Part shown: positions 8,479-30,614 of the stretch, in pieces | Layout: the number at the start of each line of letters is the position of its first letter | Position numbering within the stretch: the stretch's first letter is position 1 | Assembly: GCA_000004985.1 (NCBI GenBank) | Contig: GG738869.1 | Strand: one strand, 5' to 3' | Length of the DNA stretch: 64,000 nucleotides | Source of the DNA: Naegleria gruberi | Taxonomy: Eukaryota | Translations under genes and position numbers: made by a program | The notes under the pieces: model-generated | What the model was told of the DNA's origin: nothing | Seen by the model: only the letters and a program-made list of their open reading frames with translations | Database searches by the model: none

Positions 8479-9072
8479 ATGTTCCTCTCTGATGATATTA
8501 TTATCAACATTTTTAAGCCACTCCTAGAATTCTGTCACTTTATTCAGCTCCGAGCTGTTAATTCTCATCTCTGTCGCTTAATTACCTCAAATTTAGAAGA
8601 AAATAATCAAATCATCAAGAAGGGAACACAACTGATCATTTTGAAAGGCAGTTTTAGAATTAGAGGTGATGTATTACTTCCCTTTACTGAAATTTTACGT
8701 AAACAGGAAATCAAATCTCAACACGTGATTGATGAATTCAACAGGAAGGATTATGGAAGATTATTTAAATTTTCTGATTTGGAATATGCTAGAACAAATA
8801 ATGCCTCTTTTAGAACTGAGTCTTTCCTACCACCAAACAATAGAAATTTAATTACTATCAAACATACTATCTCAGATCCTAATGATGATAGTGCTGTATG
8901 TTGTGCTAATTGTAAGATTGATTTGATTTTATCACCAACACAATCGAAAGCATGGAAAGAGGAAAATGGGTGTGTTGTTGGAATGGTTTCGAATGAATAT
9001 TTTGATTTGGTGTGGCATTATGATTTTCTTACTGGAATACGAGTTTATGTAAATATTTGTACAATCATGTAA
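8479..9072 (+). CDS. F-box-like domain protein (hypothetical)
   Basis: ATG at 8479. N-terminal 'DDIIINIFKPLLEFCHFIQLRAVNSHL' has the F-box signature. Confidence 0.45.
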   Translation: MFLSDDIIINIFKPLLEFCHFIQLRAVNSHLCRLITSNLEENNQIIKKGTQLIILKGSFRIRGDVLLPFTEILRKQEIKSQHVIDEFNRKDYGRLFKFSDLEYARTNNASFRTESFLPPNNRNLITIKHTISDPNDDSAVCCANCKIDLILSPTQSKAWKEENGCVVGMVSNEYFDLVWHYDFLTGIRVYVNICTIM

Positions 9073-9348
9073 AATAGGATTGAGTTTTGTGATGAAATGA
9101 AGTTCAAGATGGATTTGATAATTCAGCCAAAATGAATTGAGTAACCGAATGAATAGAACTGTTTTTGTATGGCTTTCCTCAATTAACTTGTTTAATTAAT
9201 AGTTTTTCAAATAAATATGAACGTTTATGAAGAAAAGTCTTCTTTCGAATAAGAAACATACTGAAACAGAAAATGGTCGTGTAGTGTACAACATTGGCAA
9301 ATCGTTTGCAATAGCCAAAACAAGCAACATCCACTCATTCCCAGCCAA

Positions 9349-12654: not shown

Positions 12655-12662
12655 AACATTAA

Positions 12663-13307
12663 TCATTTCATATCAATTCTATTACGCTCTTTTAAATAGT
12701 GATTTTCTGACTTAATTTCTCCACATACTGCAAAACAAGTTGCAAGAATAGCTGTTGAAATTGATCCAATTTCTAACATTGCCAACAAAACTTCATTAGG
12801 CAATTGCTCAGTCATCAAAGTATGAGGAAGTGTTTGAACAAATTCCAGTAAGCTTCTGGAATGATGAATTTGGATTTTAGTCTCATCAAAGAGTAATACA
12901 CCAGCGATTGCAATATTAACCACAACATCCAAACCATTTAAAACACTTGCAATGAAAAAAAGCTTACTTGCTTTTTTGGATTTTTCTGATTTGGATCTTT
13001 GATAATCAGCAAGACAACCTTGTAATGCTAAAATACCGCCAATCAAAGGCACTGATAGAATAATTCCTCGAGCAAATCTACTTGGAATTATCATACCCAT
13101 TCTCCACAATATTCTCAATCCAATAATTTCATACATTGATTCTTTCATTCGATGAAGAGGTTGCTTCTTATTATTTTGTTGATCATTTGTAAAATTAATA
13201 TTGGAAACTGAGAATTTTCTTTCTTTCGGAATCGTCCAGATAGTTAGTGCTGGATTTTTCTTTGAGATTAACCTATTAATAGGTATTAGGCATTTGAGTT
13301 TAATCAT
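12663..13307 (-). CDS. Small multi-pass membrane protein (hypothetical)
   Basis: ATG at 13307. Several hydrophobic helices (IILSVPLIGGILAL, LFFIASVLNGLDVVVNIAIAGVLLF, GSISTAILATCFAVCG). Confidence 0.5.
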   Translation of the reverse strand: MIKLKCLIPINRLISKKNPALTIWTIPKERKFSVSNINFTNDQQNNKKQPLHRMKESMYEIIGLRILWRMGMIIPSRFARGIILSVPLIGGILALQGCLADYQRSKSEKSKKASKLFFIASVLNGLDVVVNIAIAGVLLFDETKIQIHHSRSLLEFVQTLPHTLMTEQLPNEVLLAMLEIGSISTAILATCFAVCGEIKSENHYLKERNRIDMK

Positions 13308-13354
13308 TTTTTTAATCCAATTAATACACGTTATTACAAATTTACAATTTAAGT

Positions 13355-15019
13355 TTATTTCTTAGCAGGAGCACCAGCAGCTTTTGAAAGAGGAATATCT
13401 TGAGCTGCAGATCTCAATTTTTCTACAGTAAAATCAGTTGTCATTAACTTCCCTGTGTACTTATCTTGAATACCACTCTCTAACAACTCATGCAATTTCT
13501 TTTTTCTTATTAATTCGACTTTCTTTCTCTCGAGTTCCATCTTTCTCTTGAGTAATTCGCCTTCCTCAAGATATTCTCTTCTTTGTTTGTCTTTTTCTTC
13601 TTTAGTGTTATCCATTTGTTGCATCAGCTGTTGTTGAGTCTGAACTCGTCTCTTTTTCTCCTCTTCAGCCTTAAGCTTTTCCAATTCTTCGAGCTTCTTT
13701 TGGTGATCCACAATCCTCGAAAAATCTTCTCTGTCCTCTCTTGCAAGTTCAGCAATCTTATTTTCCTTTTCCATCTTTTGCTTTTGTCTTGTGCCATGAA
13801 GTTCTTGATTCATTTTAACTCTCTTTTCCTCTTCTTGCATTTTCTTTTTTCTGAATTCTCTTTCCAGAGCTTCTTGTGCTCGTTTAGCTCTCAGAGTATC
13901 CATTTCAGAAAGCTTGTCTTGTGCCTTTTCTTGGAGAGCTCTTAGACGAGCAACTTCTCTTTCCTTTTCTGCTCTTAATCGTTCTTGTTGATCCGTTATT
14001 TCTTGTTCTCTTCTTTCCTTTTCTGCAAGGTAGTCAGCAATTTGTCTATCTTCTTCAAGCTCAGCAAGTTTTAATCTTCTCTTCAGAGATATTTGTTCTG
14101 CATTCGCAAGAGCAATTTCTTCCATAAGTAACTTTTCTTGCTTCTTCTTTTCCTCTGCCTCCTTAATATCTTCGGATTTCATCTTTTGCATGTGATACAA
14201 CATTGCATCTTGTTCTTGTCTCTTTAACTCGAGTTCTCTCAGTCTTTCCTTTTCTCTTTCCTTCATTTGTTCTTTAATTACAAGTGATCCATTTCTTCTG
14301 TCTTCTTGTCTCTTTTTTTCTCTTTGTTCATACATTTTAATGGCCTTTAACCTTTCAAGTTCCATCAATTCATCAAGTCGTCTATCTTCCTCTTGTTTCT
14401 CATAGATAATTCTTTGTTTTTCCTCCAATTGCTTGTCTCTAATTGTGACACATTGAGAATACAAGGCCATACTATTCATCCTCTTGACTTCATCAATATT
14501 TTCATCCATTTGAGTGATAGCTTTTTCAAGGAGTTGTAATTGTTTTTCTTCATTTTCTACGTCAAGATCAGATTTTTTCATGTCTCCCTTAGATTTCTTT
14601 TCTCTATCAAGCTGTCTTATACGTTCCTTTCTTTCCATAGCTTCCAATGTTTCTTCCCTTTTTTTTCTTTCAGCTTCCCTTTGTTTTTCAAGAGGAGTTG
14701 CTTTTTCTTTCAGGGTCATAAATTCGGAAGCTGAAATAACGACAGCATCTGGCTGCTTTTTGACAGTTTGTAATGTCCTTTTATCCATTTTCATTGAGTT
14801 ATTTTGTTGTTGTTTTTGTTGTGGTTGGCCCCTTGCTGATGACTTGTTCGTACCAAACAAGTTTTCATCCACAGTAGCCGTATCAGCAACTTTTCTATAG
14901 GTTGATCTTGCGTGAGATCCTGCACTAGATATCGAAGCATTAGATGATGGCTAATATAATAATATCAATTAAAATCAAATATCAGGTTAGAATACTTTGA
15001 GGGTAAGGCAACGTACCAT
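13355..15019 (-). CDS. Coiled-coil protein with trichohyalin/plectin-homology-type E/K/R-rich repeats, CFAP45-like (flagellar); join(13355..14950,15017..15019)
   Basis: The 505-aa ORF has no in-frame ATG (track start is GTG). The in-frame upstream region stays open to 14950 and is preceded by ...AAAAAAATG|GTACGT...TTAG, so exon 1 is the ATG alone, followed by a 66-nt intron (14951..15016). The body is a continuous heptad-rich ERK repeat, as in CFAP45/CFAP53/TCHP. Confidence 0.55.
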
Positions 15020-15214
15020 TTTTTTTGTTGGTTAAAAAACGACAAACTTAACTACGAAAAATATTTGGCGGGAGAAATTGTTTGAATGCATCCACTGGCT
15101 TTTACAAGTATTGACAGCTGGAGCCAATCTTATCAAAGTTTATTATAAGAATAGATTATAACGAGAACATTAGAATAGGTGGATGAAATCAATAAAATTG
15201 CCTTATTAAATAAT

Positions 15215-16875
15215 TTATTGTTCCATTTCTTCATCCTCAGGATCTTCTGAAAGATTAGATGGTTTAAAGATTGAATAGCCGTCAAGACTTGTTGTAATAA
15301 GCACATTTTGGAATTTTGGATGCCAGTGCACTTCCTTAATGTCAACTTGACCCATGTGTTCGAATAACAATTGTGGTGGGATTTCATTTCCGATTTCTTT
15401 TTCAATTTCTTCTTGTTCGGCATCTCTTTCGAGTGAGAGATCCCAAATTGTCACCTTATCAGAATCAGAAGCAGCCAATAACGTTGATTCAATTGGATTC
15501 CATTCTATTGATGTAATAGAATTCTTGTGATAAATAAATTGGCCAACTGGTTTCATAGGACTGCTATCAGAACATTGTCTGACGTCCCAAATACGAATAA
15601 CACCATCATCGTCACCACTTGCAATAAAGTAACTTGTGAGAGGATTCCAAGAAATAACGTTAACATCTGCCTTTTCACTAGCTTCAAAACTGAGAGCATG
15701 CTTTCTATTCTTTTTTCTTGTATCCCAGAATTTAATAGTTCTATCGCATGAACATGATGCAAACACACTGTCTTCACTTGGTGAGAATTGAAGATCCTCA
15801 ACACTTCCTGTATGTCCAACAAATGGTTTATCATAAATTCTCTTCCAAGTATGAACTCCACTATTTGTTTGCATATCCATAACGTTAATTTCACCATTAC
15901 AATCACCAGTAGCAAGTCTACCTTCCACACACTTCGACCAGTCCATAGCAAAACCTTCAGTAGTATGGAAATCGAAAGTTTGAATTGCCTTCTTACTCTT
16001 TGTAATAGATTTTAAGGAACTGGCCATATTTTCTTGTCTTAAAACTTGTGACATTTGTGTCAAGTCATAAATGTGAACCTTAGAGTCCTCACACCAAAAA
16101 CCAACAATATTTCTATTTTGTGGCATTGCTCTTACTCTATTAACATTACCAGTGATTGGAATAGTTTGGTATTCAAGTGATGGTTCATCATCCAAATTTT
16201 CATTATCATCATCTTCATCTTCAACGTCACTTTCATCTGAATCGTAACGTGTTTTGTACATATCGTAAGCTTTAATCATGTAACAATTCTTTTGAGGAAC
16301 AGTTTCATCAGTTTGCACACCCACAACAAAATAACATGACAATGGATAATTCATAGTATCGAGTGGTTGTGAAACAATATCAAAACTCAAAGCAGGCCAT
16401 TCATTTCTGATTTTGTAATTAATTTCGTAGGCCTTATTTTGAAAAGTTAATTCGAATTCTCCATCATTGTAATTCTCTCCAGGACGATAAATATCGGCTT
16501 TGGAATTTATACCTTCTCTATACTTTTCGGCTTCTTCCTCCTCTTCAATATATTGTTTTTCACTGTTTTGTACTTTCAAATTTAATTCATCCATCTTTTG
16601 ACGAAGTTCGGTTTCATCTCCTTCAAATTCATATTCACCTTCATCTTCATCAACGTAGTCTTCCGAATTTTCATCGTATTCATCTTCATATGGATCGCCT
16701 CTACACAAAATTTAATCATCATCATCTATGAAACTAAAAAAACCTACGCTGCATATTCGGCTCTATCTTCATGGTCTGATTCTTCATCAGATGAGTCAAG
16801 ATGTCTGACCACTCTCGATTCATTCTTACTTCCAGAAAAAGTGGCTACTTTACTTCTCTTCTTTGCGCCTGGCAT
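15215..16875 (-). CDS. GRWD1: Glutamate-rich WD-repeat protein GRWD1/Rrb1 (ribosome assembly chaperone); join(15215..16700,16748..16875)
   Basis: Acidic N-terminus plus WD40 repeats ('GHTGSVEDLQFSPSEDSVFASCSCDRTIKFWD'). The track start is TTG. The real exon 1 (MPGAKKRSKVATFSG...EYAA) joins through a 47-nt GTAGGT...TGTGTAG intron (16701..16747). Total length is 1614 nt, in frame. Confidence 0.8.
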
Positions 16876-17004
16876 TTTTTATTGTCTTGTTGACTTCAAC
16901 AATTTTTTTCAAACTTTCATCAACAAGGCTTGTTGGAAAAGTGAAGTAAAATGTTGAACAAGAATAAAAATTTAAAAAAATTGAAAACACTTTAAATTCA
17001 AAAA
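16876..17004. promoter_or_regulatory. Shared ~130-bp divergent promoter of GRWD1 and BRX1
   Basis: The two ATGs (16875 on minus, 17005 on plus) face away from each other across 129 bp of A/T-rich DNA. Confidence 0.4.
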
Positions 17005-18012
17005 ATGGTGACTACCAATAACAACAAGGAAACATCGGTCGCTTCAACAGAGAAGAAGCCAGTTGCTGTGACTACCAACAAGATTAGACAAAAGTTAAAG
17101 CAAATGAACAAACAAACAAAATCAACGGTTACAAATAGTGATAGTACCAATTCTAAATTCCACAACAAACAAAGAACTTTGATTTTATCTTCACGAGGTA
17201 TTCATGCTAAACATAGACATTTATTGAAGGATCTTCGTACCTTGTTACCTCACACTAAAACCGAAAGTAAATTCTCTAAAGAAGGAATAGATGAAGGAGA
17301 TTTGGTTAAAAAACTTCACAGACTTCAAAAGATTGACCACATTGCTGCTGCTTTGAAATGTCCAAATATTTTGTACTTTGAAGTTGATAAGGAATCAGCA
17401 GATACAGAATTGTTTTTATGGATGTCAAAGACTTCAACTGGACCTTCTATGAGATTTAAAGTTGAAAATATCAGTACTATGAATGAATTGAATCTTATCG
17501 GAAATTGTTTGAAATATTCAAGACCATTATTACATTTCGACAAAACATTTGACAATATTGAAGGCGAAGATAAGCTTACTCATCTCCCATTGATTAAGGA
17601 ATTATTAACACAAACTTTCTCTACACCACTTAATCATCCAAAATCAAAACCATTCTTTGATCACATGTTTGCTTTCTATTATTTGGATGGAAGAGTTTGG
17701 TTCAGAAATTATCAAATTGTTACAAAACAATCAAGCCAAGGAGTTGCATTGACTGGTTCCCAAAAACATGAATATTCTCTTGTTGAAATTGGACCTAGAT
17801 TTGTTCTCAAGTTGACTAAGATTCTCAATGGTTCTTTCGATGGTAGAGTTATTTTCAATAGTGATTCACACTTTGTTTCAAAGGCTGAAGTTCAAAGATT
17901 GGAAAGCATTAAACTTGACCTCGACAAGCAAAAAAAGACTGAAAAACACAGAAAGTACTTAGAATTGAGAAAGCCAGCTGATGCTGATGAAGTGAGTTCT
18001 GTTTTCAATTAA
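17005..18012 (+). CDS. BRX1: Ribosome biogenesis protein BRX1 (Brix domain)
   Basis: 'RTLILSSRGIHAKHRHLLKDLRTLLPHTKTESKF...' is the Brix/IMP4 sigma-70-like fold signature. Length 335 aa is typical. Confidence 0.85.
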   Translation: MVTTNNNKETSVASTEKKPVAVTTNKIRQKLKQMNKQTKSTVTNSDSTNSKFHNKQRTLILSSRGIHAKHRHLLKDLRTLLPHTKTESKFSKEGIDEGDLVKKLHRLQKIDHIAAALKCPNILYFEVDKESADTELFLWMSKTSTGPSMRFKVENISTMNELNLIGNCLKYSRPLLHFDKTFDNIEGEDKLTHLPLIKELLTQTFSTPLNHPKSKPFFDHMFAFYYLDGRVWFRNYQIVTKQSSQGVALTGSQKHEYSLVEIGPRFVLKLTKILNGSFDGRVIFNSDSHFVSKAEVQRLESIKLDLDKQKKTEKHRKYLELRKPADADEVSSVFN

Positions 18013-19559
18013 AAGTTTTTTCAAAAAACTGCTGTACTGATTTTTTTCAATATTCCCTAAAGCTCCTCACCTAAAGCAATAATAAGGACTTTGTGAGCGG
18101 ATTTTGAATGATATTGGAGCAAAATTTGTCGTGCCCAACTCAATTTTCCATCACTACAAGATATTAATCACCGCGTTTCATTTTGCTTTTTGTAATAAAA
18201 GTTGTAAAGTTATGACGTTGGATAGCTTTATAGAAAAAAATACCATCACCAACTGACAAACCAAAAATTATTACCTCCCAACAATAATTAGTAACATCAC
18301 ATCCTACCTCGTCTCTTAGGTTGAGTTCTTTTATAAGAAAGTTCTTTTCATGTAGAGGTGTTTTATAATTATTCCAAAATTGAAGTAATTGTTTTACTAC
18401 GAGGTAAACTCACAACAAATTCTCAAGGAGATGATGTTGTGTTTTGGGATGTAATGTTTCTTATTATGTCAGAAAACATCTAGTAAGGAATGATTTATTT
18501 AGAAGAAGAACAACAACAATATTTAGAAGATATAAAACCATCACTGTGGGCTGATGATTTTCAGCAATAATTTAGAGAGACCAAACAAAAAATGATTTAA
18601 TATTGCAACATACAAACACACCACTTCAGCACCAACAGCAAGTAATCGTCTATGGAAAACTTCATCAAAGAGGGTCTCCTTTTTTTCATCACTAAATTCT
18701 ATTGATGAAGCATCATGACTATATCCGAGGATTGTGAAACAACAACCAACAGCAGGCTTTTACGATGATTCCGCACATTTGAATGAAGTATTAGTTTAGA
18801 TCAACTGGTACTGAAAAGGAGAAAAAGTATGCTGCTTGTTTGGCTCCTACCTCATCACTTGCTGTTGCTTTTTGTTATTTACTCCTGAATGCGTTGCTAT
18901 CTTATATATGATTGTGATGTGTTTAATTAATAAGTTGGAGTGGGAGCAGCAACAGGGTAATAAATGTAAGTACCTACGATTTATTTGAAATTTTACCTTA
19001 ATTCCATTTCATAATTGACACCATGGAACATTTAAGGTGAAATCTTCACCAAAATAATAATTTGAAATAGTCAGTTTTGGAAAATGATGTCAGAGAATTT
19101 GATATTTATGAGTGTAATCTTTTCACATTTCAATTTGGTTGGTGCTATACATTCCATCATCAAGACTTAAGGTCCTGCCATTAATTAGAAACTGTGATGC
19201 AAGAAATAGTAACTGTTGTTGATGGAACTGTTTTAGAAGATTTAGCAAGTATTAATGTTGTCTACACAACAGCAACTGTTGCCATCTAAATCCTTACAAC
19301 TCTGAAGGTGAATTCATTTTGAAATATGATCCTCCAAGGGAAACTATGTTCATTCTCACTGATTAAAAGCTGATTTTACCGTTTGATTTGAGTGTAGACA
19401 TTTACAATAGATGATTCTCTTACACATACAGAGGTGAAAGAGATGCACTGATGATGTTCTTTCAACTCTTCAGTTTTGACTCAAGTCAAATTGTCTATTC
19501 AGTGGAAGGTATGGATGAGTTATCTATATAGTAGACACTTATAACTTTAGAATTAGAAA

Positions 19560-20100
19560 GCTATCAATTACCAATAAGACTATCATATTTATTACTTATC
19601 GGTGGACAAGAAGAAGGAAAACTTTGGAAATGAATATTACTGATACTCTTGCTCAACCAACAGGACTTGCTTTTTTCAGAATTCTGAACATGCTTCAATT
19701 AACACCATTCCATATACATTGCCTACAAGTTTTACATCAAGATTGTCAATGATCTTACAATAATTGCAAGATCTAGTGCTCCACCAACTCCAGGTCTGAG
19801 TTAGCAGCTCCTGTTCCTACTCTCAATACAACTATTGCCCCAACAAGTATTGCAGTTGGTGAGGATGGAAAAGTAACACACCCTCAAAATGTTAACACCT
19901 GCTCCAACCTGAACAATTTTTGTCGTGGCTAATACTGGATAATATCGGTCCTATTGAGGATGATGGCTTGGCTATTAGTTCTTCATTTATTACTGTTTCC
20001 TCTGAGGAGATTATTCTTGCTGATTGTATGAACAATAGAATTAGAAAGATTTGTGGAGAGGGAGTCATTACTACCAGTGGCTAATGCCTATGACTAAGAG
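19560..20100 (+). pseudogene. Degenerate NHL-repeat gene relic, paralogous to the NHL/EGF/kinase receptor at 30615..34371
   Basis: Several frames carry NHL-like pieces interrupted by stops: 'PIEDDGLAISSSFITVSSEEIILADCMNNRIRKICGEGVITTSG*', 'ITDTLAQPTGLAFFRIL', 'TIAPTSIAVGEDGKVTHPQN'. Compare 'GNRIRKI...TVCGNG' in the intact gene. No long ORF. Confidence 0.3.
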
Positions 20101-21329
20101 AGATGTTTGAAAGTAATTGACCTAACCTTTCATTTTGCGTATTGTATGGAATGAAATGTCTCTAGTCAAAGAAGTGTTTTTGAGAATTGTGAATAGTGCT
20201 TCAGTGATCGTTTGGGCTCTTGTTGATGGTAAGGAAATGAGTAGAGATATCAAAAAGATTGCATATGATTTTGCCTTCTTTACTATTGATGTTTCACAAG
20301 TTTGCCAAGGAATTGTAGTCATTCAAGTTATGTTAATATTCGTAAAAAAATTGAGAAAATGACTCTTTGCCACCTTGCTGATTTTCGAAGTGGTTTCTCA
20401 GCACCAAACTTTCACATCATCATCTAAACATCAATTTAGTAGTAATATAGTAATTTTTATTGGAGTATTTTCTTCATTATTTTGGAATTTATCTTCATGA
20501 TGAAAAATCACAAGTTGATGAATCATCAGAACATTATTGTTGTTTTCCATCAATATAATAATTTTATTTGTGGAAATTAATATATAGTAATGAAATTACA
20601 CTAAAATCTTCATCACCGTTGGATTTAATGGAAAAGTTGGAAAACTATTAATGTGGCATTGTTGGAAATGGACAATAGTATGATATAAAACTTTGTTTGA
20701 TCACTTTTCATCAAGTATTGATAGAGATAGGTACATGTGAATTTTGAAAACTAACATGAACATTACTCCATGTGTACTTCAACCAACTTGAATACAATCT
20801 TATAGAACTACTAGTACTATTTAAATCACGAATAAACACCATATTCATCATCAAATATTCGTCATCTTGTCGATTACGGAATTTCATTCCACCAGTGTTG
20901 ATTCGGGCCCAACAACAAAATATTAACAATAAAACAATTACCAATACTATTGTTTACATGTTTTATGTTAAATGATCGTAACGATCATCAAGATCATCCT
21001 GTTTTTATTGCATTTCTCATGATAATCAGAAATGTCACAGAGAGTGCCACATATCCATTCTACTCTCAATAAATAATAGTTCCTTTTTACACATGTGCAA
21101 CTTTGCTTATAAACATGATGAATTCATATATTAAAGACTCCAAAGGCTAGTATAATCCTCAATGTGATGTCTAATAATACCATTACAACTTAAAGATAAT
21201 TATCTTATAATTTCATTGAATATGAATTGAATTTGTAAATTGACATAAAACAGTGGTTTATTGTAATTTGGTTTAAAAATAGCTTTCTAAAGCACCTTGT
21301 TGTATCTTGTTGTGACATTTACTAAAAAA

Positions 21330-22385
21330 ATGGCAAAAGCACCAGCACAAATTGTTATGGAGAACAAATTGCGGAAATCATTAACATTAAAACAATTCAT
21401 AGAATTATCCAAGTCTACAAGAAAAAGGAGATTAGATAATCTTCGTAAGAAATTCTTTAATTCAAATTTATTTAAATATTCTTGGAGTAAATGGCGAGAT
21501 GCTATTATCGGAACAAACAATTCAATCCAATATTTATTAAAACAAAGAAAAAACATAAAAAATAATTTATCAACATCTACAATTGATACAATAATTCAAC
21601 AATTAAAAGAGGAAAGGAACAAATCTACAAAAAAAGAATCCAAAAAAGATTTTGAAAAAAAAATTAATAATTTATTACAATCTAAAAATTTATTCAAAAT
21701 CAATGTTAATTTGATATTATGTAGTAATTTGGCTAATACTATTCAACTAATGTTTTTAAGAAATATACTTCCCGAAAATACCACTACTGAGGTAACCAAT
21801 ATATTGGATAAAATTAACCAAAGAAGATCAAAGGAAAATTATTATATAGGAAGTTGGGGAAAGAGTTCTTCTTTTCTATTTAAAACTAATGACACTATTT
21901 TTAATGAATTATCTTCTCAATTTATTAAAATTATTAATTTATTAAAAAATTATGTTTTGGAAATATTGAAATTTGGAAATAACAAGATGAGGAAATTCTT
22001 AGAAAAATACAATAGTAGTGATTTTTTATCAATTTATCCGACAGTGTGTTTTAATTTTTTGGATAAATCTGTAGATGAAAATAGAATTCTACATATTCAT
22101 CCGGATAAGGAAGACACTGGAACTAGTCTAATTTTTTACTTTGGAAAGTTTAAAGGTGGAGCAATCTCATTTCCTGAATTAAATTTTAAGCTTATGGTTC
22201 AATCAGCAGATGTTTTATTGTTTGATGGTAAGAATAATTTACATGCTGTTGAATCACTTCATGGTAAAGATGATGTTAGATATTCCGTTGTATTCTTTGC
22301 TCATAAAGCAGACTTGGGTAAAACTAGTTATCCCATGAATAGAGGAGAAGTTATGAAAGGTATTAAGAATAAAATCAATAATTAA
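21330..22385 (+). CDS. Tet/JBP-family 2-oxoglutarate/Fe(II) dioxygenase (Naegleria Tet-like 5-methylcytosine dioxygenase paralogue)
   Basis: The C-terminal half 'HIHPDKEDTGTSLIFYFGKFKGGAISFPELNFKLMVQSADVLLFDGKNNLHAVESLHGKDDVRYSVVFFAHKADLGKT' carries an HxD...H iron triad. It is near-collinear with the NgTet1 core as I recall it (HKDNLD..SLFYFGNF..GYLEL..VFVQPGDVLFFKGNEYKHVVANI..GLVYFAHKGSKT). The first ATG is at 21330 (MAKAPAQ); the track start at 21297 is non-ATG. The gene is strongly AT-rich. Confidence 0.65.
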   Translation: MAKAPAQIVMENKLRKSLTLKQFIELSKSTRKRRLDNLRKKFFNSNLFKYSWSKWRDAIIGTNNSIQYLLKQRKNIKNNLSTSTIDTIIQQLKEERNKSTKKESKKDFEKKINNLLQSKNLFKINVNLILCSNLANTIQLMFLRNILPENTTTEVTNILDKINQRRSKENYYIGSWGKSSSFLFKTNDTIFNELSSQFIKIINLLKNYVLEILKFGNNKMRKFLEKYNSSDFLSIYPTVCFNFLDKSVDENRILHIHPDKEDTGTSLIFYFGKFKGGAISFPELNFKLMVQSADVLLFDGKNNLHAVESLHGKDDVRYSVVFFAHKADLGKTSYPMNRGEVMKGIKNKINN

Positions 22386-24134
22386 ATTTTAAATAATTAT
22401 TTAAATAATTTTTATAAATAATTTAATTGTATTAAAAAAATGTCTCCACACTTTAACCTCGAATTTTATTCGAGAAGCACAACAGTAATAGATGAAAGCA
22501 CTCTCGGTGGGCTTGATTTGATAATAACACACTTATACATCCTCTTGTAGGAGTATAATTAGTGTTGTTGTTGTGAGTTGAGGACGTTATTTTAATTCCT
22601 TTTCCCTTCTTCCAAAGTTTCCTGTTCAAACTTTGTTGCTTCCGTAAATCATATTATCAACAGGAAAGATCATTTAACTGCGAGCATCGTTGTTGGATAC
22701 AAACTATGCATTGACAATTCTTTTAATTATCTTGAATGTTTGGTAATTGATGGCAATGTTCATATAATCAACTCTCACCAAAGAAGAATTCTAAAATATA
22801 TCTAATGATCAGGCTGTTGATTTTCAACAACATACAGGTATTCGGAGCTATTGTAAAATAATTGTTTTACTTTGATGATTCAAATGGTTTTCAACAACTA
22901 ACATAATTCTTATCCATCTTGCAAAAAAAGAGGATACCATGACAGCAATCAACTTATATCAATATTGAAAAATCATTAGGAAATTATTCAGAAGTAGCAT
23001 GCATTGTAATTGTTGCGTTCAAAACATTTCTCAACATTAAATTCTTTCTCCACAATCAAACCCTGCTCAGCAACAATCAGAAGAGGAGCCATCTTTTAAT
23101 CTAACTTGCCATCTATGTTGAAGGAATGTACATTTAGAAATCAGTGATGTTCACCCTGAATGTGATGGATCTTTTTCTGGCTACTTGTATTGGTTGCTCC
23201 AGTAATTGCACATATGGAGGCTCTTTTAATGTTTCCAATAACCAAACTATGCTGGTGATTCCACTCCCAACCAAAACCCTATCAAAAAGAATTCTTCTAT
23301 ACAACTAGTATGAGTCATAGAGCTGTTGTCTTTCGTCCACTTTTAATAATAATATATGGTATGCTTTTGTTCAGGCTGTAATGTTTCGAGTGCAATTCAA
23401 CACCAGTGTTTTCATTCCAACCATGATTGGATCATATCTCCAAAGAGGACACTGGGTATTATTACTATTTAAAGTTGGCTACTAATAGTGAAATCTACTT
23501 GTTCGATCCAATGTTGGATGCCAAGTTCACTAGTGCTGAGCTGGCTATTGATATTTCAGATATCCTTTTTGTTTGTTGTCACTACCACCCTATTATTCAA
23601 CTTCTAGGTTTACGTTTCAAGAATCATGGGTTTATTTGGTTTAAGATGTTATGTTTCAGTATTCACGTAAATATGATGCAAGGAGGACACTTATTGCTGC
23701 TGTGGTGGTAATAGTAGCATTACCTTAGGTGTTGTAGTGTATACTACTTCATCATCTATTAATACTTATTCTCCAATTACTCAAACAAAGACAATTTCAA
23801 TCAACATTCACTATGTCAGTGCTTAATTATTCCAAGTTGTACTAAAACAACATCACTAACAAGGTGCTAAACAACTATGCTTTCCATTTCAACGCAGAGG
23901 CATATGTCTTGCGTTTGGGGCAGAGATTTAGTGCTTGAATAGTGGTTAAACAACAATGGATGGGCATTTTGGCAACTGGTTTTCAGTAGCTTCACATTCA
24001 TGTTGTTTGACTTAACAAACACTTTGGCTGCAATCTATTCACTCTTTATCCATCATTTATTCATCATTTACACCAATACTGTATTGTTTACATTTTGTAT
24101 GCTAGCTGGTTATTATTATTAATCATTAAAAAAA

Positions 24135-26864
24135 ATGGGAGTAGCGACACTTTTTACCAAAGCTGACGTTTTAAATTCCCACAACATCAAAAAGCAAAAA
24201 GAAACCAAACGTCCTGCCTTTGAAGGTGATAATGATAGATCGATTGTGGCGGCAATTAAAAAAACAAAACAACAAGCATCCAACGACTTTGAGTATTACA
24301 AGACATACAAAGAAACAGATTTCACTAATGAACAGAATTTTAGTTCAATAATTTATCAGATAATGCTAGTTCTATTGCCCTATTTTGTTTTTAAAATAAC
24401 CTCAGGATTATTAGATTTTGAATCAATATTATTATACTTTCTAGTCTCCACAAAAAAAGGCAAAGATTTATTAGCACAAGCCAATCTATATAGTACTGAG
24501 GGTGTTTCTTGGTGTGAAGCAATAGTATTTAAAGCAATTTGTAATGCAGATATAAGTATAGGGAGTTATGGTAGATTTATTGGTTGTTTAGAAGAATCTA
24601 GTAAATCAGACACATCCAGAAATAAGAAAAAGGCAAGACATTTTTTACCATCACTCTCTACAATAACAAAATATTCAAGTAGTTTACATCAAGTATTAGA
24701 TATCAATCATGCTGCAGATAGCGAAGGACTTTATTGGAGAATATTTTGTTCATCCATAGAACTTAATGACAGGACATTCAGATATGCAACGCTTCAAAAT
24801 GCAGAATTGTTTTTATTCTCATTTATTCGCTACCATGAAATGATCATAGGAGAATATATCTTCTTTGTAAAGATAAGATGTACTGTTGATGGTTCACCTT
24901 TAGAGGGAGCCTGTACTGCGTATGATATTGTATTAATTCATCCCAAGATAGATCCATTTTGTGCTCGTAATTATATTTCTGTTATTATTGCCGAGCCTAA
25001 AGAGGAAATAGCGTTCAAATTAAACATCTGGGATTTCTCTCGCCAGTTAATGCGTATCACACAGTTGAAATACTCTGTACCTAATGAAGAAACAAGAATT
25101 ATTCCTGTAAAATTTATTACCAACCCTGATAAGGGCGCCTTTAACAAAATTATAGATGTGGAAAAGGTAACGCCAATTTGTGATCCTATTTTTAATTTGG
25201 TAAATCTTTATTGCCTATTATCAATGATTTTCAATACAGATAATTCCTTAATACTACCTCTAATTCCAACAATAAGAGGAGATTGTAATAATGATAGCAA
25301 CAAAGCAAAAGGACAAGCAAATCTAGCAAAGGTTATGGAAATTAAAAAGATTATGCCTGAAACGTTACCTTATTACCACAACATTCCAACAAAATCCCAA
25401 ATATTTACTGATTTTCAATTAGATGAAGATTCTATTTTTTTAATTGAAAAATTTATCATTAAGAAACCTCAAACAGATTATTTATGTTGTATGTTTTGTT
25501 ATTTAACTAAACAAACAAAAAGAATAGCATTGAAGTATCCTGATTTGTGTACATGGAAATGGTACAGATCAAACGAAAGCTCAAGTAATGCTTTAGGCTG
25601 GCCTTTTAAAAGTTTTTCATGGTGTCTTTCGCATGATATAAGAGCCTGTGGTCAGAATCTTATTGAAGAAGAGGTGGGACAAATTGAAGAAGATAGACAA
25701 TATTTTGCCAAATTATTCAGTTCTGAATCTCCAATTGCCTCTTTGAAATGTGGTTCTAAAAAGCTAATTAATGAACAACTAGATGCCAACCTTGTTTCTG
25801 AATTTGAGTTTTGTCAATGGAGTGTATTTGAATTAAAGGTGAAAGAAGAAAAAAAGAAAAACAAAACAGGAACAGAGCTACGAACTAGTTCAGTTAAACT
25901 AATCTATGATCAGATTTTGTTTAAACAAATAGACAAAATTATAATGACAATAGATGTTTGGTATCCTCATTGGCTCACATATCGAGAAAACAAACAATTA
26001 CAGGTTTGTCAATCCCTTAACAATAATCAATCATTTGAAGATTGTACAAATGAAGAACACTCCAAGCGAGGAACATACAAACCAAAAAACTATGAACATA
26101 TATGGAAAGCTCTTCAAAAAACATACATTACTCTTCGCCAACCAAAATCTAAATGGTTAGAATGGAAGAAAACTGGATATCAAGAGCCATTGCTAATATT
26201 TAAGAATTTAAATAAGGTTTGGATAAAAGATATTTTAGGAAGAATATCAGAATATTTACACATTCATCAACATGCAGATATTGTGTTCGATGAAGTAGAA
26301 GAATCATTCGTAACAACATCAAACATTGGATCTGAATCTAAAAATTCTTTAAGAAGGAAGCGTCATGTTTCATTTGGAGTTAATGGTGGTTTAAGACATC
26401 CTTGTGATGATTCTTTATATTATGACAGCAAAAGAATTCTTAATGAATTGAAGATCCTTGCTGAGACTCCTAATATTATTGCAAGACAAGATGAGATCAA
26501 AAGAAAACAAGTTTCCGAAAAAGAAAAACTCACACAACCAAAAAAGAAAAGAAAATCTGAAACTACTACACAACCCAATCCAATAAGCTCAACCAATTCC
26601 TCAATTAATTATATCAATCCTTCCCTATTACAACCTCTACTTCCAGATAATTTTAATTCAATTACATTACACAATCAACACTCCTTCTCACCTCCTATAT
26701 ATATTCATCCTCTTCAACTCCAACCTCCACTAACTAACAATTTAACATTTTCTCAATTCAATCCTTCTCAAAATTCCAATAACCAACCAACATCTCCTTA
26801 CCAACCATCATCTCCATTTTCATTCTTTTCATCCTCCAATCCATCACCAAACTCCTTTTTATAA
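24135..26864 (+). CDS. Orphan 909-aa protein, N/K/I-rich, with a Cys-cluster ('YLCCMFCYL...CTWKW...WCLSHDIRAC') and a Pro/Ser/Gln-rich tail
   Basis: Uninterrupted ORF with ATG at 24135. No recognisable family by eye. Its composition matches the adjacent Tet gene and differs from flanking housekeeping genes. Confidence 0.55.
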   Translation: MGVATLFTKADVLNSHNIKKQKETKRPAFEGDNDRSIVAAIKKTKQQASNDFEYYKTYKETDFTNEQNFSSIIYQIMLVLLPYFVFKITSGLLDFESILLYFLVSTKKGKDLLAQANLYSTEGVSWCEAIVFKAICNADISIGSYGRFIGCLEESSKSDTSRNKKKARHFLPSLSTITKYSSSLHQVLDINHAADSEGLYWRIFCSSIELNDRTFRYATLQNAELFLFSFIRYHEMIIGEYIFFVKIRCTVDGSPLEGACTAYDIVLIHPKIDPFCARNYISVIIAEPKEEIAFKLNIWDFSRQLMRITQLKYSVPNEETRIIPVKFITNPDKGAFNKIIDVEKVTPICDPIFNLVNLYCLLSMIFNTDNSLILPLIPTIRGDCNNDSNKAKGQANLAKVMEIKKIMPETLPYYHNIPTKSQIFTDFQLDEDSIFLIEKFIIKKPQTDYLCCMFCYLTKQTKRIALKYPDLCTWKWYRSNESSSNALGWPFKSFSWCLSHDIRACGQNLIEEEVGQIEEDRQYFAKLFSSESPIASLKCGSKKLINEQLDANLVSEFEFCQWSVFELKVKEEKKKNKTGTELRTSSVKLIYDQILFKQIDKIIMTIDVWYPHWLTYRENKQLQVCQSLNNNQSFEDCTNEEHSKRGTYKPKNYEHIWKALQKTYITLRQPKSKWLEWKKTGYQEPLLIFKNLNKVWIKDILGRISEYLHIHQHADIVFDEVEESFVTTSNIGSESKNSLRRKRHVSFGVNGGLRHPCDDSLYYDSKRILNELKILAETPNIIARQDEIKRKQVSEKEKLTQPKKKRKSETTTQPNPISSTNSSINYINPSLLQPLLPDNFNSITLHNQHSFSPPIYIHPLQLQPPLTNNLTFSQFNPSQNSNNQPTSPYQPSSPFSFFSSSNPSPNSFL

Positions 26865-26897
26865 AATAAAAGGAATAATTTAAATTATAATAATTGT

Positions 26898-27659
26898 TTA
26901 ATATTTATTCCATTTAACAGATTCATCAAGCATAGAGCAGAAATAATCAAATTCAATTCTAATCATCTTCTCTTCAGGTTTGTAAATTAATTTAAATTGA
27001 TTAATTCCAAATTTCCATAAAATACCATCATGCTCCCATTTAAATGCATACCACTTATCACTAAACAAAGGAGGAAGGCTATAATTTCCAGCAAACAACC
27101 AATGATATGTTATCTTTGGAACTATTCTTCCTTCCCTTGCAATGCCACCCTCAATCAACATCTCTTCTTTTAAAATGCTATATGGTTTTGCCTTTTGTAT
27201 TTGATAATCAAAGAATAGCTTTGCTTCGTGATCATCTGTTACAGAAACATAATGTTGATGATGCCACTTGACATTATGGGTTGTATCTGGCTGAGCATTT
27301 CTAATAACTACCTCCTCAATAGTTCTCGGAAGTACCTTTAGGTATCTTGTTGCATAATATTCATCAGAATATTTTTCATCCATTATCTCACGCAGTGTTA
27401 TTGTTGGTAGGGAAGTATCAAAAAAGTATTCAAGTTGTTGTCTTTTCTCTAATGGTATGTTCACTTTCTTACTCTCTTCACTGCCTTCAAGAATGTTTGT
27501 TACTTGGCGTTTAGCTGTTTTCAAATCATCAACCTTCTCTACAACAAAACGTATTTTGTTTGTATTGTTATTCTTCTCCAACGATTTATTCATAGCTACC
27601 CTCTTACTTTTGCTCAACCTGTATACTTCAAACGTTACTTCTGTTTTGTTGGTGACCAT
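26898..27659 (-). CDS. Hypothetical protein (253 aa)
   Basis: ATG at 27659. Its stop is only 34 bp from the stop of the convergent 909-aa gene. No family assignment. Confidence 0.5.
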   Translation of the reverse strand: MVTNKTEVTFEVYRLSKSKRVAMNKSLEKNNNTNKIRFVVEKVDDLKTAKRQVTNILEGSEESKKVNIPLEKRQQLEYFFDTSLPTITLREIMDEKYSDEYYATRYLKVLPRTIEEVVIRNAQPDTTHNVKWHHQHYVSVTDDHEAKLFFDYQIQKAKPYSILKEEMLIEGGIAREGRIVPKITYHWLFAGNYSLPPLFSDKWYAFKWEHDGILWKFGINQFKLIYKPEEKMIRIEFDYFCSMLDESVKWNKY

Positions 27660-28045
27660 AGAAAATACTTGTTTGTTTTGTTTTGATTTTGTTGTTGCTC
27701 ATGTTGTTGTTGATATGTGGTGTTGTTGATGTTATTGTATTTTTTTTTACGTGAGTTTACAAATTGAAAAACAAGCAAGAATGAAACGCGGTGAAATTAC
27801 GATCAGGATTTGAAAAAATATCAAAAAAGACGTTACATAACAAACAAACCTCGTAACCGATCATCAACACTTGTACAACTTGACTCTTAACAAGTATTGT
27901 TGTTGTGGGAAGATTTTAATCTTCGTAACAAACTTCATCATCATCCGACTTTTTTAAAAACTCTCTTATCATCATCAACAAGAAGTGATTTTGTACTAGT
28001 ATTGTATTTTGGTAGTTTAATTATAATACAAGAAGATTAACCATC

Positions 28046-30412
28046 ATGGGAGGAGAAACTGAACCATCTAACGAAGCTCTAATATCACCAATTACACCTT
28101 TTTCAACCATTATTCCAAATACCTATTCTCAACAACAAGCTAATTTTGATTCAAGTACAATATCCGAAGAGAGGAATGATGGTGATAGTATCAATAGAGT
28201 TACCTCTCTTCCACCATTACCATCATTAGACTCTCCCAAGAAAAAACCTCTTCCATCCATTAACACTCTTTCTCCACCAAGAAAGACTTCAAAACCACTC
28301 CCACCAAGACCAACACAAACCTCTACGGAAATTAATAATTTAGTATTTTCTCATCCCTCTGCTATGAATACAACTTATTCTTCCGATAATTTTACCACCA
28401 ACAATCCATCCTATCCATCCACACCTCCAAAAGTTTTGTTCCGAGATTATACTGAGAATAATTTAGAGCCAGCTTCCAGTATTAATACATATAATTACGA
28501 GTTTGCAAATATAAACCCTGAACCAATATCACATATATTTACAAATGTAGATGGTAGTATGCACCGTAGTTCCTCCTTTGCGGGTACTTTGGTCAACAGA
28601 CGTTCAATTCCTTCGAATGTTGGTTTAAACTCTATACAGGAGGAAGCTATGATTCGTACTCAAAGTTATGACAAATTTAAATTGGACGAATTAAAGAAAC
28701 AAGGATCGACTGCTGCTGGCAATAATAACGGAAATAATAATAATAAGAGACATAAGAAAATATTTTATAATACTGAATTTTTGGAGAAATGCGGATTTAG
28801 TAATAATTCTATTGAACAGCAACAAATCAAACAACTGAAACAGGATGAACTTCAAGAGGAACAGATTCGTAGAATGCATTCTGAACAAGAACAAAAAATG
28901 AAGCAAATGGAATTAGAAGAGTTGGCTCTCGTCAACCGAACTTTACAACAAGAGTTCAGTTTTTCAGAATTTTTAACTTCTCAACCAAAATACTCATGGA
29001 GTGACTTTTTTGCCCATAACAAGAATGCATTTAGTTTAATCAGAGCTATGGCATCTCAATGGTCATGGGGAGAAATGACCTTGGGACTCGAATATTTTGC
29101 AAGAAGTAAGGGCAAGATGAAACGTGATTTTACTCAATTCAAATTAGAGTCAGATTTAGAGAGACTGCCAGCTTCAAACGTTGAGGTTTGGAGACATTAT
29201 GCACGTTTAACCTATCAAGTTTTTAGAGACTCGATAGAGGACATACCAAGGAACACCCGTTTGGAACTTCACAAAATTATTGCCTACGATAGAACTCAAC
29301 AAGCCATGAGACCTGGATATTTTCTGTGTGTGGACGACTATACAAAATCGGTTCTGGTTATTTTTAGAGGAACAAAATCATTTAGTGATATTCTGACTGA
29401 TTTGCACTGCTCCTCTATTCGTTACAAACATGGATATTGTCACAAAGGAATTTTGACAGCTGCTCAATATTTTGATTCGAACAAATTCATCAAGGAAGTG
29501 GTTAAAAGAACTCTTGAGCATCATCCAGGATACAAATTAAGGTTGCTGGGTCATAGCTTGGGTGGTGGTACTGCAGCTATATTGTCCACTATGTGGAAGA
29601 AAGACTTTCCTGATATTCACTGTTATGCATTTGCATGTCCACCAGTTTTATCACAAATTTTAGCTGACGAATGTGCTGACTATGTTACAAGTTTTGTAAA
29701 TGGTGATGATTTTGTAACAAGATTATCAATGACAGCTGTTCACGAATTGAGAAAGGAAGTACAGAACTATCCTTGGAAGGAGGAAATGATGAAAGATATT
29801 CAAAACTCAACACTTGGAAAGTTTGCAGCTGGAGTTAAAAATTATGCATCTGGTTTATTTAGTGGATTATTTGGAGGTAGTAAGAAGGCAGATGTAGTAG
29901 AGCCAATCATAGAAGTTAAAAAGGATGTAATCAAGACAGAACCTATCACCACAAACATTACAACAATAAGTACAGGAGAAGATGCCAAAAGAATTGAGTA
30001 CGATCAATCTAATTCATCGATGGAGGATCAAGATATTTCCAGTTCAAGTAATGCTGATGATGTGCAGAGTACAGATGAGCCTCTTTCCTCAATCTCACAA
30101 AGCACTAATGATGATGTTTTCCCTTCTTCAGGCTCAACTGTTAAAAGAAAAGTTTCCAAAAAACCAAAGAGGAACCCAGATTCTCCACTGATTATTAATG
30201 ATTATGAAAATCTTGTTGTGACTCTCTTCCCAGCTGGTTGTGTCTATCAAATTAGAAATATTGATGACACTGTGTACATAAAAAAGGCCAATAAGGAAGA
30301 CATTACTTCCATAATTTTGAGTGACAGCTACAAGGAAGATCACAGAATGATCAACTATTTATGTAATCTTGATGCTTACAATCCAATAACAACCGAGAGT
30401 AGTGTAATATAA
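28046..30412 (+). CDS. Class-3 (fungal-type) lipase domain protein, sn-1 diacylglycerol-lipase-like
   Basis: 'RLLGHSLGGGTAAILS' is a GHSLG nucleophile elbow in lipase_3 context ('YFLCVDDYTKSVLVIFRGT', 'FVNGDDFVTRL'). There is a long low-complexity N-terminus. Confidence 0.8.
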   Translation: MGGETEPSNEALISPITPFSTIIPNTYSQQQANFDSSTISEERNDGDSINRVTSLPPLPSLDSPKKKPLPSINTLSPPRKTSKPLPPRPTQTSTEINNLVFSHPSAMNTTYSSDNFTTNNPSYPSTPPKVLFRDYTENNLEPASSINTYNYEFANINPEPISHIFTNVDGSMHRSSSFAGTLVNRRSIPSNVGLNSIQEEAMIRTQSYDKFKLDELKKQGSTAAGNNNGNNNNKRHKKIFYNTEFLEKCGFSNNSIEQQQIKQLKQDELQEEQIRRMHSEQEQKMKQMELEELALVNRTLQQEFSFSEFLTSQPKYSWSDFFAHNKNAFSLIRAMASQWSWGEMTLGLEYFARSKGKMKRDFTQFKLESDLERLPASNVEVWRHYARLTYQVFRDSIEDIPRNTRLELHKIIAYDRTQQAMRPGYFLCVDDYTKSVLVIFRGTKSFSDILTDLHCSSIRYKHGYCHKGILTAAQYFDSNKFIKEVVKRTLEHHPGYKLRLLGHSLGGGTAAILSTMWKKDFPDIHCYAFACPPVLSQILADECADYVTSFVNGDDFVTRLSMTAVHELRKEVQNYPWKEEMMKDIQNSTLGKFAAGVKNYASGLFSGLFGGSKKADVVEPIIEVKKDVIKTEPITTNITTISTGEDAKRIEYDQSNSSMEDQDISSSSNADDVQSTDEPLSSISQSTNDDVFPSSGSTVKRKVSKKPKRNPDSPLIINDYENLVVTLFPAGCVYQIRNIDDTVYIKKANKEDITSIILSDSYKEDHRMINYLCNLDAYNPITTESSVI

Positions 30413-30614
30413 TGTAAATAAAATCTCGATTTTTGACCATTAAGGAATTTAATCATTTCACAACAAACAATTAGAAAGCACAATTTTCTTTTTTTGTATT
30501 GGAAAGGGAGCAAGCAATTAATTGAACTCAATTCGGAAATATTGAGCTATAATTTTAGAATGGATGTTGTATTGGTTGTGGTTGTATGGTTGCTAAAATA
30601 ATCAATCCTACAAA

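What the first reader, a model, noticed from the sequence alone, without database searches (positions are those of the whole stretch)
18013..26864. ~9-kb compositionally distinct island: Tet gene plus 909-aa orphan, flanked by degenerate DNA and pseudogene relics
Elsewhere in the window genes are spaced about 100-600 bp apart. Between 18.0 and 24.1 kb there is only one intact gene (the Tet gene), set in 5 kb of ORF-free sequence that includes a decayed NHL-repeat gene. It is followed by a 909-aa N/K-rich orphan whose stop lies 34 bp from the next resident gene. In basidiomycete fungi Tet/JBP genes travel with KDZ transposons. An analogous carrier element, or a giant-virus-derived insertion, would produce this picture.
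Basis: inference. Interest (0 to 1): 0.6.

Follow-up and report, generated by a model that had tools for sequence, protein, structure and literature searches.

The report
Tet-carrying DNA transposon in Naegleria
The gene-poor "island" is a 9.6-kb mobile DNA element of the amoeba Naegleria gruberi that carries its own RAG1/Transib-like transposase, a partner gene and a Tet 5-methylcytosine oxidase; as far as the searchable literature shows, transposons carrying a Tet gene have so far been described only in fungi.

Summary
The window is Naegleria gruberi NEG-M. The island is real, but its limits are 18169-27793 (9,625 bp), not 18013-26864. It starts 5'-CACCGCGTTTCATT and ends with the inverted copy. 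An environmental N. gruberi-like contig, about 99% identical, joins 18168 directly to 27794, with Brix and lipase genes adjacent. This is an empty site, and it shows no target-site duplication. In the same sample the element's terminus is joined to two other flanks, and an internally deleted copy exists. So the element is, or recently was, mobile.

Cargo:
- An intact NgTet1-like Tet gene.
- The 909-aa protein. It is not an orphan: it belongs to a Heterolobosea-restricted family with the motif order D, D, C(2)C, C(2)H, H(3-4)H, E. Its best fold matches are RAG1 and Transib, but these are weak.
- The 253-aa "resident" gene, which is part of the element. It sits next to the transposase gene in Willaertia and is fused to it in N. 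lovaniensis.
- A decayed NHL-repeat gene.

Willaertia magna has an 8-kb homologue with CACGGGGTGGT inverted termini enclosing the same three genes. Only the Tet gene region is compositionally odd. No viral link was found. I found no report of a Tet-carrying transposon outside fungi, so this is a new variant of a known kind.

The parts
18169..27793 (+). Whole element (9,625 bp), inserted in the 400-bp Brix-lipase intergenic region
   Evidence: Empty-site contig L012: L012 6-3034 matches window 15150-18168 (99.0%) and L012 3035-5747 matches window 27794-30502 (98.6%).
18169..18188 (+). Left terminal inverted repeat, 5'-CACCGCGTTTCATTTTGCTT
   Evidence: 14 nt exact and 20/21 with one indel against the right end. 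It is the longest CAC-initiated inverted repeat flanking the 909-aa gene. 17 of 1000 Markov simulations reach 14 nt.
27773..27793 (-). Right terminal inverted repeat (reverse complement 5'-CACCGCGTTTCATTCTTGCTT)
   Evidence: Its outer edge coincides to the base with the empty-site junction. It also coincides with the point where environmental contigs L001 and L002 leave the window for two other flanks.
19525..20042 (+). Relic of an NHL-repeat gene (frameshifted, with stops) within the 3.1-kb non-coding left arm 18189-21329
   Evidence: The only two NHL core motifs in six frames of the window fall here. Pfam NHL E=0.17/0.21. No coding potential.
21330..22385 (+). Tet/JBP dioxygenase gene (351 aa; annotated at NCBI as a truncated 211-aa model, NAEGRDRAFT_79850); 25% GC
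   Evidence: phmmer against PDB NgTet1 gives E=3e-21, with H-x-D, distal H and R aligned. Pfam Tet_JBP E=3.4e-5. Annotation. GC.
22386..24134 (.). Non-coding spacer; 23862-24030 is retained (87%) in the deletion derivative L011
24135..26864 (+). 909-aa putative DDE transposase (XP_002676955.1). Candidate catalytic and zinc residues: D252, D332, C452/C455, C497/H500, H709/H713, E734
26898..27659 (-). 253-aa accessory gene (no NCBI gene model), function unknown
   Evidence: Homologue lies directly upstream of the transposase gene in W. magna L005, L007 and L006, and is fused to the transposase N-terminus in N. lovaniensis P0008. The protein is 100% conserved in the environmental copy.

Best explanation
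Window 18169-27793 is a cut-and-paste-type DNA transposon of Naegleria gruberi. It is bounded by about 20-bp inverted termini, 5'-CACCGCG...CGCGGTG-3'. It encodes a DDE transposase of a Heterolobosea-restricted family (the 909-aa protein) that resembles the CACTA/Mirage/Chapaev/Transib-RAG1 (CMCT) group. It also encodes a 253-aa partner protein, probably the DNA-binding or targeting module, because it is fused to the transposase in N. lovaniensis. Its passenger gene is an intact NgTet1-like Tet/JBP dioxygenase. Shown: the termini, the exact insertion limits, the empty allele, other insertion sites, a deletion derivative, the three-gene homology with a TIR-bounded Willaertia element, and intact Tet catalytic residues. 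Inferred: the 909-aa protein is the enzyme that moves the element. By analogy with fungal TET+ transposons, the Tet enzyme oxidises 5-methylcytosine on or near the element and so counteracts methylation-based silencing. The left arm holds a decayed NHL-repeat gene, either captured or an old cargo. The insertion in NEG-M made no target-site duplication. The confidence of 0.8 applies to 'mobile Tet-carrying DNA transposon'. The narrower claim that the transposase is RAG1/Transib-like (CMCT) I hold at about 0.6, and the anti-silencing role of Tet at about 0.5.
Confidence: 0.8

Rival explanations
1. The region is a giant-virus (Nucleocytoviricota) derived insertion that brought in the Tet gene and the 909-aa gene.
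For: The Tet gene and its upstream kilobase are AT-rich outliers at 25-27% GC. The 909-aa and 253-aa proteins have no Pfam family.
Against: No viral core gene is present. IMG/VR scans with the Tet and 909-aa proteins found no relative. Foldseek against BFVD found nothing meaningful. All relatives with a source name are heterolobosean nuclear genes. The unit has transposon-type termini and a clean empty site. Endogenised giant viruses have not been seen in Naegleria genomes according to PMC11043551.
Confidence: 0.02
2. The unit is an ordinary resident segment. The environmental allele is a 9.6-kb deletion, and the inverted repeat and other junctions are coincidence or assembly artefacts.
For: A 14-nt CAC-initiated inverted repeat arises in 1.7% of simulations. 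No TSD marks an insertion. Only one copy is seen in this window. The environmental contigs are short.
Against: A deletion would have to start and end to the base at the outer edges of the inverted repeat. The same end is joined to two other flanks in that sample. A deletion derivative exists on a separate contig. Willaertia has two 98.5-99% identical copies on different contigs, both starting at the same CAC terminus.
Confidence: 0.04
3. The unit is mobile but the 909-aa protein is not its transposase. The protein could be a domesticated or unrelated DNA-binding protein, and the element moves by another enzyme or mechanism, which would fit the absence of a TSD.
For: No significant sequence or fold match to any transposase. 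No TSD. The N. lovaniensis and N. fowleri homologues have no detectable CAC inverted termini, and one carries Zn2Cys6 transcription-factor-like clusters.
Confidence: 0.1
4. The carrier is a member of the fungal KDZ (Kyakuja-Dileera-Zisupton) transposon group.
For: The Tet gene is linked to a large transposase-like gene, as in basidiomycetes (PMC12730594).
Against: hmmscan of the 909-aa protein and six relatives against Pfam-A gave no hit at E<=10 to any transposase model. The termini are CAC..GTG with no TSD, whereas Zisupton makes 8-bp TSDs. The motif set and fold matches point to CMCT/RAG1.
Confidence: 0.03

Closest known systems
Fungal TET+ DNA transposons (Kyakuja/Dileera/Zisupton, Plavaka, ESTA, EnSpm, hAT, IS3EU, Harbinger, Helitron; Iyer et al. 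2014 from my own knowledge; Kojima 2025, PMC12730594)
   Same: A DNA transposon carries an intact TET/JBP dioxygenase gene as a passenger between its termini, beside its transposase. The fungal ESTA and EnSpm families start 5'-CACCACGG / CACCGCGG, close to CACCGCG here.
   Different: The host is a heterolobosean amoeba (Discoba), not a fungus. The Tet is of the NgTet1 type, not the fungal PU/AG/PE types. The transposase has no detectable sequence similarity to the fungal ones. There is an extra 253-aa partner gene and no TSD.
CMCT clade of DDE transposases: CACTA/EnSpm, Mirage, Chapaev, Transib and the RAG1 recombinase
   Different: About 120 residues separate the second D from C(2)C here, against about 19 in RAG1. 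There is an additional C(2)H motif. No Pfam or PDB sequence match was found. The TSD is 0 bp instead of 2-5 bp. All similarity measures are below significance.
NgTet1 (Naegleria Tet-like dioxygenase, PDB 4lt5/5cg8/5cg9)
   Same: Same species and same fold family. E about 1e-21 over 220 residues. H-x-D, distal His and Arg are aligned.
   Different: About 30% identity only. A K/N-rich 125-residue N-terminal extension is present. This paralogue sits inside a mobile element. Its activity is untested.
Spy elements of the PIF/Harbinger-ISL2EU-Spy group (TSD-less eukaryotic DDE transposons; from my own knowledge, not checked here)
   Same: Insertion without target-site duplication into AT-rich DNA.
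   Different: Spy transposases are Harbinger-like with different termini. No similarity was tested or seen.

Membership tests
CMCT clade (CACTA/EnSpm-Mirage-Chapaev-Transib/RAG1) | [quoted passage not shown] | tested here: met
   C452xxC455 and H709xxxH713 lie between D332 and E734. Relatives have H(3)H or H(4)H. Definition from PMC12730594. This is a motif-level match only.
CMCT clade (CACTA/EnSpm-Mirage-Chapaev-Transib/RAG1) | Termini 5'-CA..TG-3' (CAC..GTG in EnSpm) | tested here: met
   N. gruberi CACCGCG..CGCGGTG. W. magna CACGGGGTGGT..ACCACCCCGTG.
CMCT clade (CACTA/EnSpm-Mirage-Chapaev-Transib/RAG1) | Target-site duplication of 2-5 bp | tested here: not met
   Occupied site ..TTAAT[element]AAATT.. 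against empty site ..TTAATAAATT..: 0 bp. The W. magna flanks TT|..|TT are ambiguous.
CMCT clade (CACTA/EnSpm-Mirage-Chapaev-Transib/RAG1) | Detectable sequence, profile or fold homology of the transposase to known members, with an RNase H-like DDE core | tested here: inconclusive
TET/JBP dioxygenases | 2OG-Fe(II) double-stranded beta-helix with H-x-D...H iron ligands and a 2OG-binding Arg; homology to characterised members | tested here: met
   NgTet1 chains at E=3e-21 and 4.8e-21, with HPD on HKD, H on H, R on R. Pfam PF12851 scores 23.6 bits, below its 34.9 gathering score. NCBI fragment P0015 carries PF12851. Enzyme activity was not tested.
TET+ DNA transposon (functional class of Kojima 2025) | TET/JBP gene lies between the termini of a transposon that shows evidence of transposition | tested here: met
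   Tet at 21330-22385 lies inside 18169-27793. Empty site, other junctions and a deletion derivative are documented. In W. magna, Tet lies inside the 9004-17037 termini.
KDZ transposons (Kyakuja-Dileera-Zisupton) | KDZ transposase domain; 8-bp TSD in Zisupton | tested here: not met
   No Pfam transposase hit at E<=10 for seven family members. No TSD.
Endogenised giant virus (NCLDV) | Viral hallmark genes or close viral homologues of the cargo | tested here: not met
   Only three ORFs, none viral. No IMG/VR relatives. No BFVD fold match. The searches reach close relatives only.

The most novel reading that the evidence does not exclude
This is the founding example of a previously undescribed, Heterolobosea-restricted superfamily or deep lineage of RAG1/Transib-like DDE transposons. 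It has CAC..GTG ends, a separate or fused 253-aa targeting subunit, and insertion without target-site duplication. The lineage independently captured DNA-modification genes: Tet in N. gruberi and W. magna, and possibly a TET-associated glycosyltransferase in a second W. magna lineage. If so, Tet capture by transposons to evade 5mC silencing is not a fungal peculiarity, and at least one NgTet paralogue is transposon cargo rather than a host gene.
Probability: 0.45. Interest if true: 0.8.

Novelty: new variant of a known kind. Interest (0 to 1): 0.7.

Why it matters
Transposons that carry a Tet/JBP 5-methylcytosine oxidase have so far been described only in three fungal lineages (PMC12730594). 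An independent case in a discoban amoeba would show that capture of an anti-silencing DNA demethylation enzyme by DNA transposons is a recurrent strategy across eukaryotes. It also changes how the Naegleria Tet paralogues, a structural model system (NgTet1), should be read: at least one is mobile-element cargo. The transposase family has no Pfam model. Its RAG1/Transib-like motif set, CAC termini and TSD-less insertion make it a useful outgroup for the evolution of the CACTA/Transib/RAG1 group. The element appears recently active in N. gruberi-like strains, so the idea is testable in a culturable organism.

Tried and rejected
- The search for homologous proteins with the 909-aa protein and with a six-sequence family alignment returned nothing, not even self. 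The likely cause is that the 90% cluster of XP_002676955.1 is represented by an unrelated 54-aa bacterial fragment. The exhaustive HMMER search was needed instead.
- The same tool with Tet returned only the truncated NCBI model, so other NgTet loci could not be examined.
- N. gruberi NCBI contigs are not in the gene-position index, so copy number in NEG-M could not be counted.
- The default repeat finder did not list the true termini among its top 25 inverted repeats. I briefly considered its pair I7 (21227-21250 / 27745-27768) as ends and dropped it once the empty site fixed the limits.
- A metagenome scan for the terminal 20-mer gave three unrelated chance matches.
- Pfam on frame translations of the non-coding arms gave nothing.
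- tblastx of the arms against the rest of the window and against the Willaertia element gave nothing beyond the three genes.
- The AF2 model of the 253-aa protein is useless at pLDDT 36. The model of the 909-aa core is poor at pLDDT 45.
- The afdb50 fold library was unavailable.
- Iyer 2014 and Yuan & Wessler 2011 are not held in the library.
- The supplement of Kojima 2025 holds no transposase protein sequences for a profile comparison.
- No CAC-type inverted termini were found around the N. lovaniensis and N. fowleri homologues.
Full report
WHAT THE WINDOW IS. Exact protein look-ups place the window in Naegleria gruberi NEG-M. The 909-aa ORF (24135-26864) is XP_002676955.1 / NAEGRDRAFT_67858, and the next large gene (28046-30412, Lipase_3) is XP_002676956.1. 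Both lie on a 747-kb scaffold. The window is 33.3% GC and densely packed with long ORFs.

CHECKING THE OBSERVATION. The two longest stretches without an ORF of at least 100 aa are 18013-21296 and 22386-24134. Every other gap is 0.9 kb or less. A codon-usage log-likelihood scan trained on 23 long ORFs of the window scores both stretches as non-coding. Brix, Tet, the 909-aa ORF and the 253-aa ORF score as coding.

The single gene between the two stretches (21330-22385) is a Tet/JBP dioxygenase. phmmer hits the NgTet1 chains 5cg8 and 4lt5 at E = 3e-21 and 4.8e-21, with H-P-D on H-K-D, the distal His on His, and Arg on Arg.

The 'decayed NHL gene' holds up. Two fragments give only Pfam NHL E = 0.17 and 0.21. 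However, the NHL core motif occurs exactly twice in all six frames of the 64 kb. Both are on the + strand at 19525-19554 and 20013-20042, in different frames and separated by stops.

Composition is only locally unusual. The Tet gene is 25.2% GC, and the 2-kb windows at 20-23 kb have z = -3.1 and -3.5. The rest of the region is 31-33% GC with ordinary trinucleotide content.

THE 909-AA PROTEIN IS NOT AN ORPHAN. Pfam finds nothing, and the word-indexed search found nothing. An exhaustive HMMER search of 1.84 billion representatives found seven relatives. They come from N. lovaniensis (P0008, 1159 aa), N. fowleri (P0013), Willaertia magna (P0014/P0009 in one 90% cluster on two contigs, and P0010), and unnamed environmental sequences. 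The alignment conserves, in order:
- a D at the end of a strand (D252);
- a D in h-h-x-P-D (D332);
- C-x2-C (452/455);
- Y-P-x-L-x-x-W-K-W;
- C-x-A/S-H (497/500);
- D-Y-x-H-x(3-4)-H (709/713);
- S/T-E-S (E734);
- N-G-G.

THE DECISIVE COMPARISONS. The 253-aa ORF next door (26898-27659, minus strand) has no NCBI model. It is found, identical in protein sequence, on two short contigs assembled from run ERR1078381. These contigs (L001, L002) match the window at 99.2-99.3% up to 27793/27796. There they diverge from the window and from each other, and the divergence begins exactly at 5'-CACCGCGTTTCATT.

The same 14-mer occurs in inverted orientation at 18169. The two ends align 20/21 with one indel. 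It is by far the longest CAC-initiated inverted repeat flanking the 909-aa gene. 17 of 1000 Markov simulations reach 14 nt.

A third contig of that run, L012, carries WD40, Brix and lipase genes in a row. L012 6-3034 equals window 15150-18168 (99.0%), and L012 3035-5747 equals window 27794-30502 (98.6%). This is an empty site. It fixes the unit at 18169-27793 (9,625 bp) to the base. The occupied site reads ..GATATTAAT[CACCGCG...CGCGGTG]AAATTACG.. and the empty one reads ..GATATTAATAAATTACG.., so there is no target-site duplication.

A fourth contig, L011, is an 85-96% identical copy lacking 24031-25941 (most of the 909-aa gene) and two smaller segments. That is the classic picture of an internally deleted derivative.

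Together these show insertion polymorphism between genomes that are about 99% identical. The element is mobile, or was very recently.

THE WILLAERTIA COUNTERPART. Around W. magna P0014 (locus L005), tblastn finds three homologues:
- a 253-aa homologue at 9165-9959;
- the 909-like gene at 10001-12331;
- a Tet-like gene at 15884-16957.

A second contig (L007) repeats L005 9004-14248 at 98.5-99.2% identity, and homology starts at CACGGGGTGGT. The exact inverted copy of that 11-mer, which has 8 G/C in a 27% GC genome, occurs once in the 22-kb locus, at 17027-17037, 70 bp past the Tet stop codon. The Willaertia element is therefore 9004-17037 (8,034 bp), and it encloses the same three genes. L007 is a right-truncated copy.

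A third, divergent Willaertia locus (L006) again has the 253-like gene directly upstream of a 909-like gene. In N. lovaniensis the 253-like region is fused to the N-terminus of the 909-like protein, followed by two Zn2Cys6 clusters. The 253-aa gene therefore belongs functionally with the 909-aa gene. It is not a 'resident' neighbour.

The N. lovaniensis and N. fowleri homologues sit in unrelated neighbourhoods, not syntenic with the window. They show no CAC-type termini.

WHAT THE 909-AA PROTEIN IS. Kojima 2025 defines the CMCT clade as EnSpm/CACTA, Mirage, Chapaev, Transib, Plavaka, ESTA, Lanisha and RAG1. [quoted passage not shown] The family here has the motifs and the termini.

The AF2 model built on six sequences is poor (pLDDT 45). 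It places D252 and D332 at the ends of strands in a beta-beta-beta-alpha-beta-alpha unit. Foldseek against PDB gives nothing significant: Hermes transposase at E=0.12, followed by several RNase H-fold proteins.

I retyped the mouse RAG1 core from memory and verified it against PDB. hhalign of the family profile against it returns one alignment. It places D-Y-x-H..H..F-E...S-E-S on N-Y-F-H937..H942..I-E...N-E962-S, at E=0.18.

Each line is weak, but they agree with each other and with the CAC termini. I take 'RAG1/Transib-like DDE transposase' as the best reading at about 0.6. The zero TSD and the 120-residue spacing between the second D and C(2)C argue against filing it as an ordinary member.

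RIVALS. A giant-virus origin finds no support. The unit has three ORFs and none is a viral hallmark gene. IMG/VR scans with the Tet and 909-aa proteins and a BFVD fold search found nothing. Endogenised giant viruses have not been reported in Naegleria (PMC11043551).

A deletion in the environmental strain would have to coincide to the base with both outer edges of the inverted repeat. It would also leave the other junctions and the Willaertia copies unexplained.

KDZ membership is not supported: there is no Pfam transposase hit and the ends are wrong.

That the 909-aa protein is not the transposase remains possible, at about 0.1.

MECHANISM. Shown: a TIR-bounded unit inserted into the 400-bp Brix-lipase spacer, 156 bp after the Brix stop and 252 bp before the lipase start. 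All three ORFs are intact. Between the 99.3% copies, the 253-aa gene has only two synonymous changes, and the 909-aa gene has 6 non-synonymous and 4 synonymous changes in 1.8 kb. This is weak evidence of constraint.

Inferred: the 909-aa enzyme, helped by the 253-aa protein, recognises the CAC termini and moves the element. The Tet enzyme oxidises 5mC and so relieves methylation-based silencing of the element, as proposed for fungal TET+ transposons. The NHL relic and the AT-rich Tet segment suggest successive cargo captures.

NOVELTY. Full-text searches found no report of Tet-carrying transposons outside fungi, or of this transposase family. Repbase and two key papers could not be consulted. 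I rate it a new variant of a known kind.

Noticed in passing
L006 8284-15078 (Willaertia magna JBEGDK010000169.1): A divergent 253-like plus 909-like gene pair lies 2 kb upstream of a 651-aa gene with a TET-associated glycosyltransferase domain (PF20691, 32.6 bits, above the 27.5 cutoff). This is the position where Tet sits in the L005 element. It may be an alternative DNA-modification cargo.
   Followed up: partly
L003 10001-13765 (Naegleria lovaniensis PYSW02000061.1): P0008 fuses a 253-like region, two fungal-type Zn2Cys6 clusters and the 909-like core in one 1159-aa ORF. No CAC inverted termini lie within 10 kb. It may be a domesticated or immobilised copy.
   Followed up: partly
window 21330-22385 and 26898-27659: Public annotation looks incomplete. 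The Tet gene model NAEGRDRAFT_79850 covers only the last 211 of 351 ORF codons. The 253-aa ORF has no NCBI model, although it is conserved in Willaertia and in an environmental strain.
   Followed up: yes
window 20200-22200: The Tet gene and about 1 kb upstream are 25-27% GC inside an otherwise 31-33% GC element. This suggests the Tet segment has a different history from the rest of the element.
   Followed up: partly
protein cluster of XP_002676955.1 (database, not sequence): The 90%-identity cluster holding the 909-aa protein is represented by an unrelated 54-aa bacterial integrase fragment (MEW8053228.1). This probably explains why the word-indexed homology search returned nothing, not even self.
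   Followed up: yes
L005 18543-21763 (Willaertia magna): Immediately right of the Willaertia element lie two SprT-like protease genes, one of them with Chromo and HMG-box domains. Any relation to the element is unknown.
   Followed up: no
L001, L002, L011, L012 (run ERR1078381, PRJEB11402): A sample labelled as a metagenome contains a Naegleria gruberi-like genome about 99% identical to NEG-M. It could serve as a second strain for insertion-polymorphism surveys. No paper mentioning the project was found.
   Followed up: partly
L005 13625 / L007 12409-12565: The two Willaertia copies differ by a 157-bp insertion or deletion inside an unannotated ORF region (L005 12602-14148) that has no Pfam match. 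What this middle part of the element encodes is unknown.
   Followed up: no
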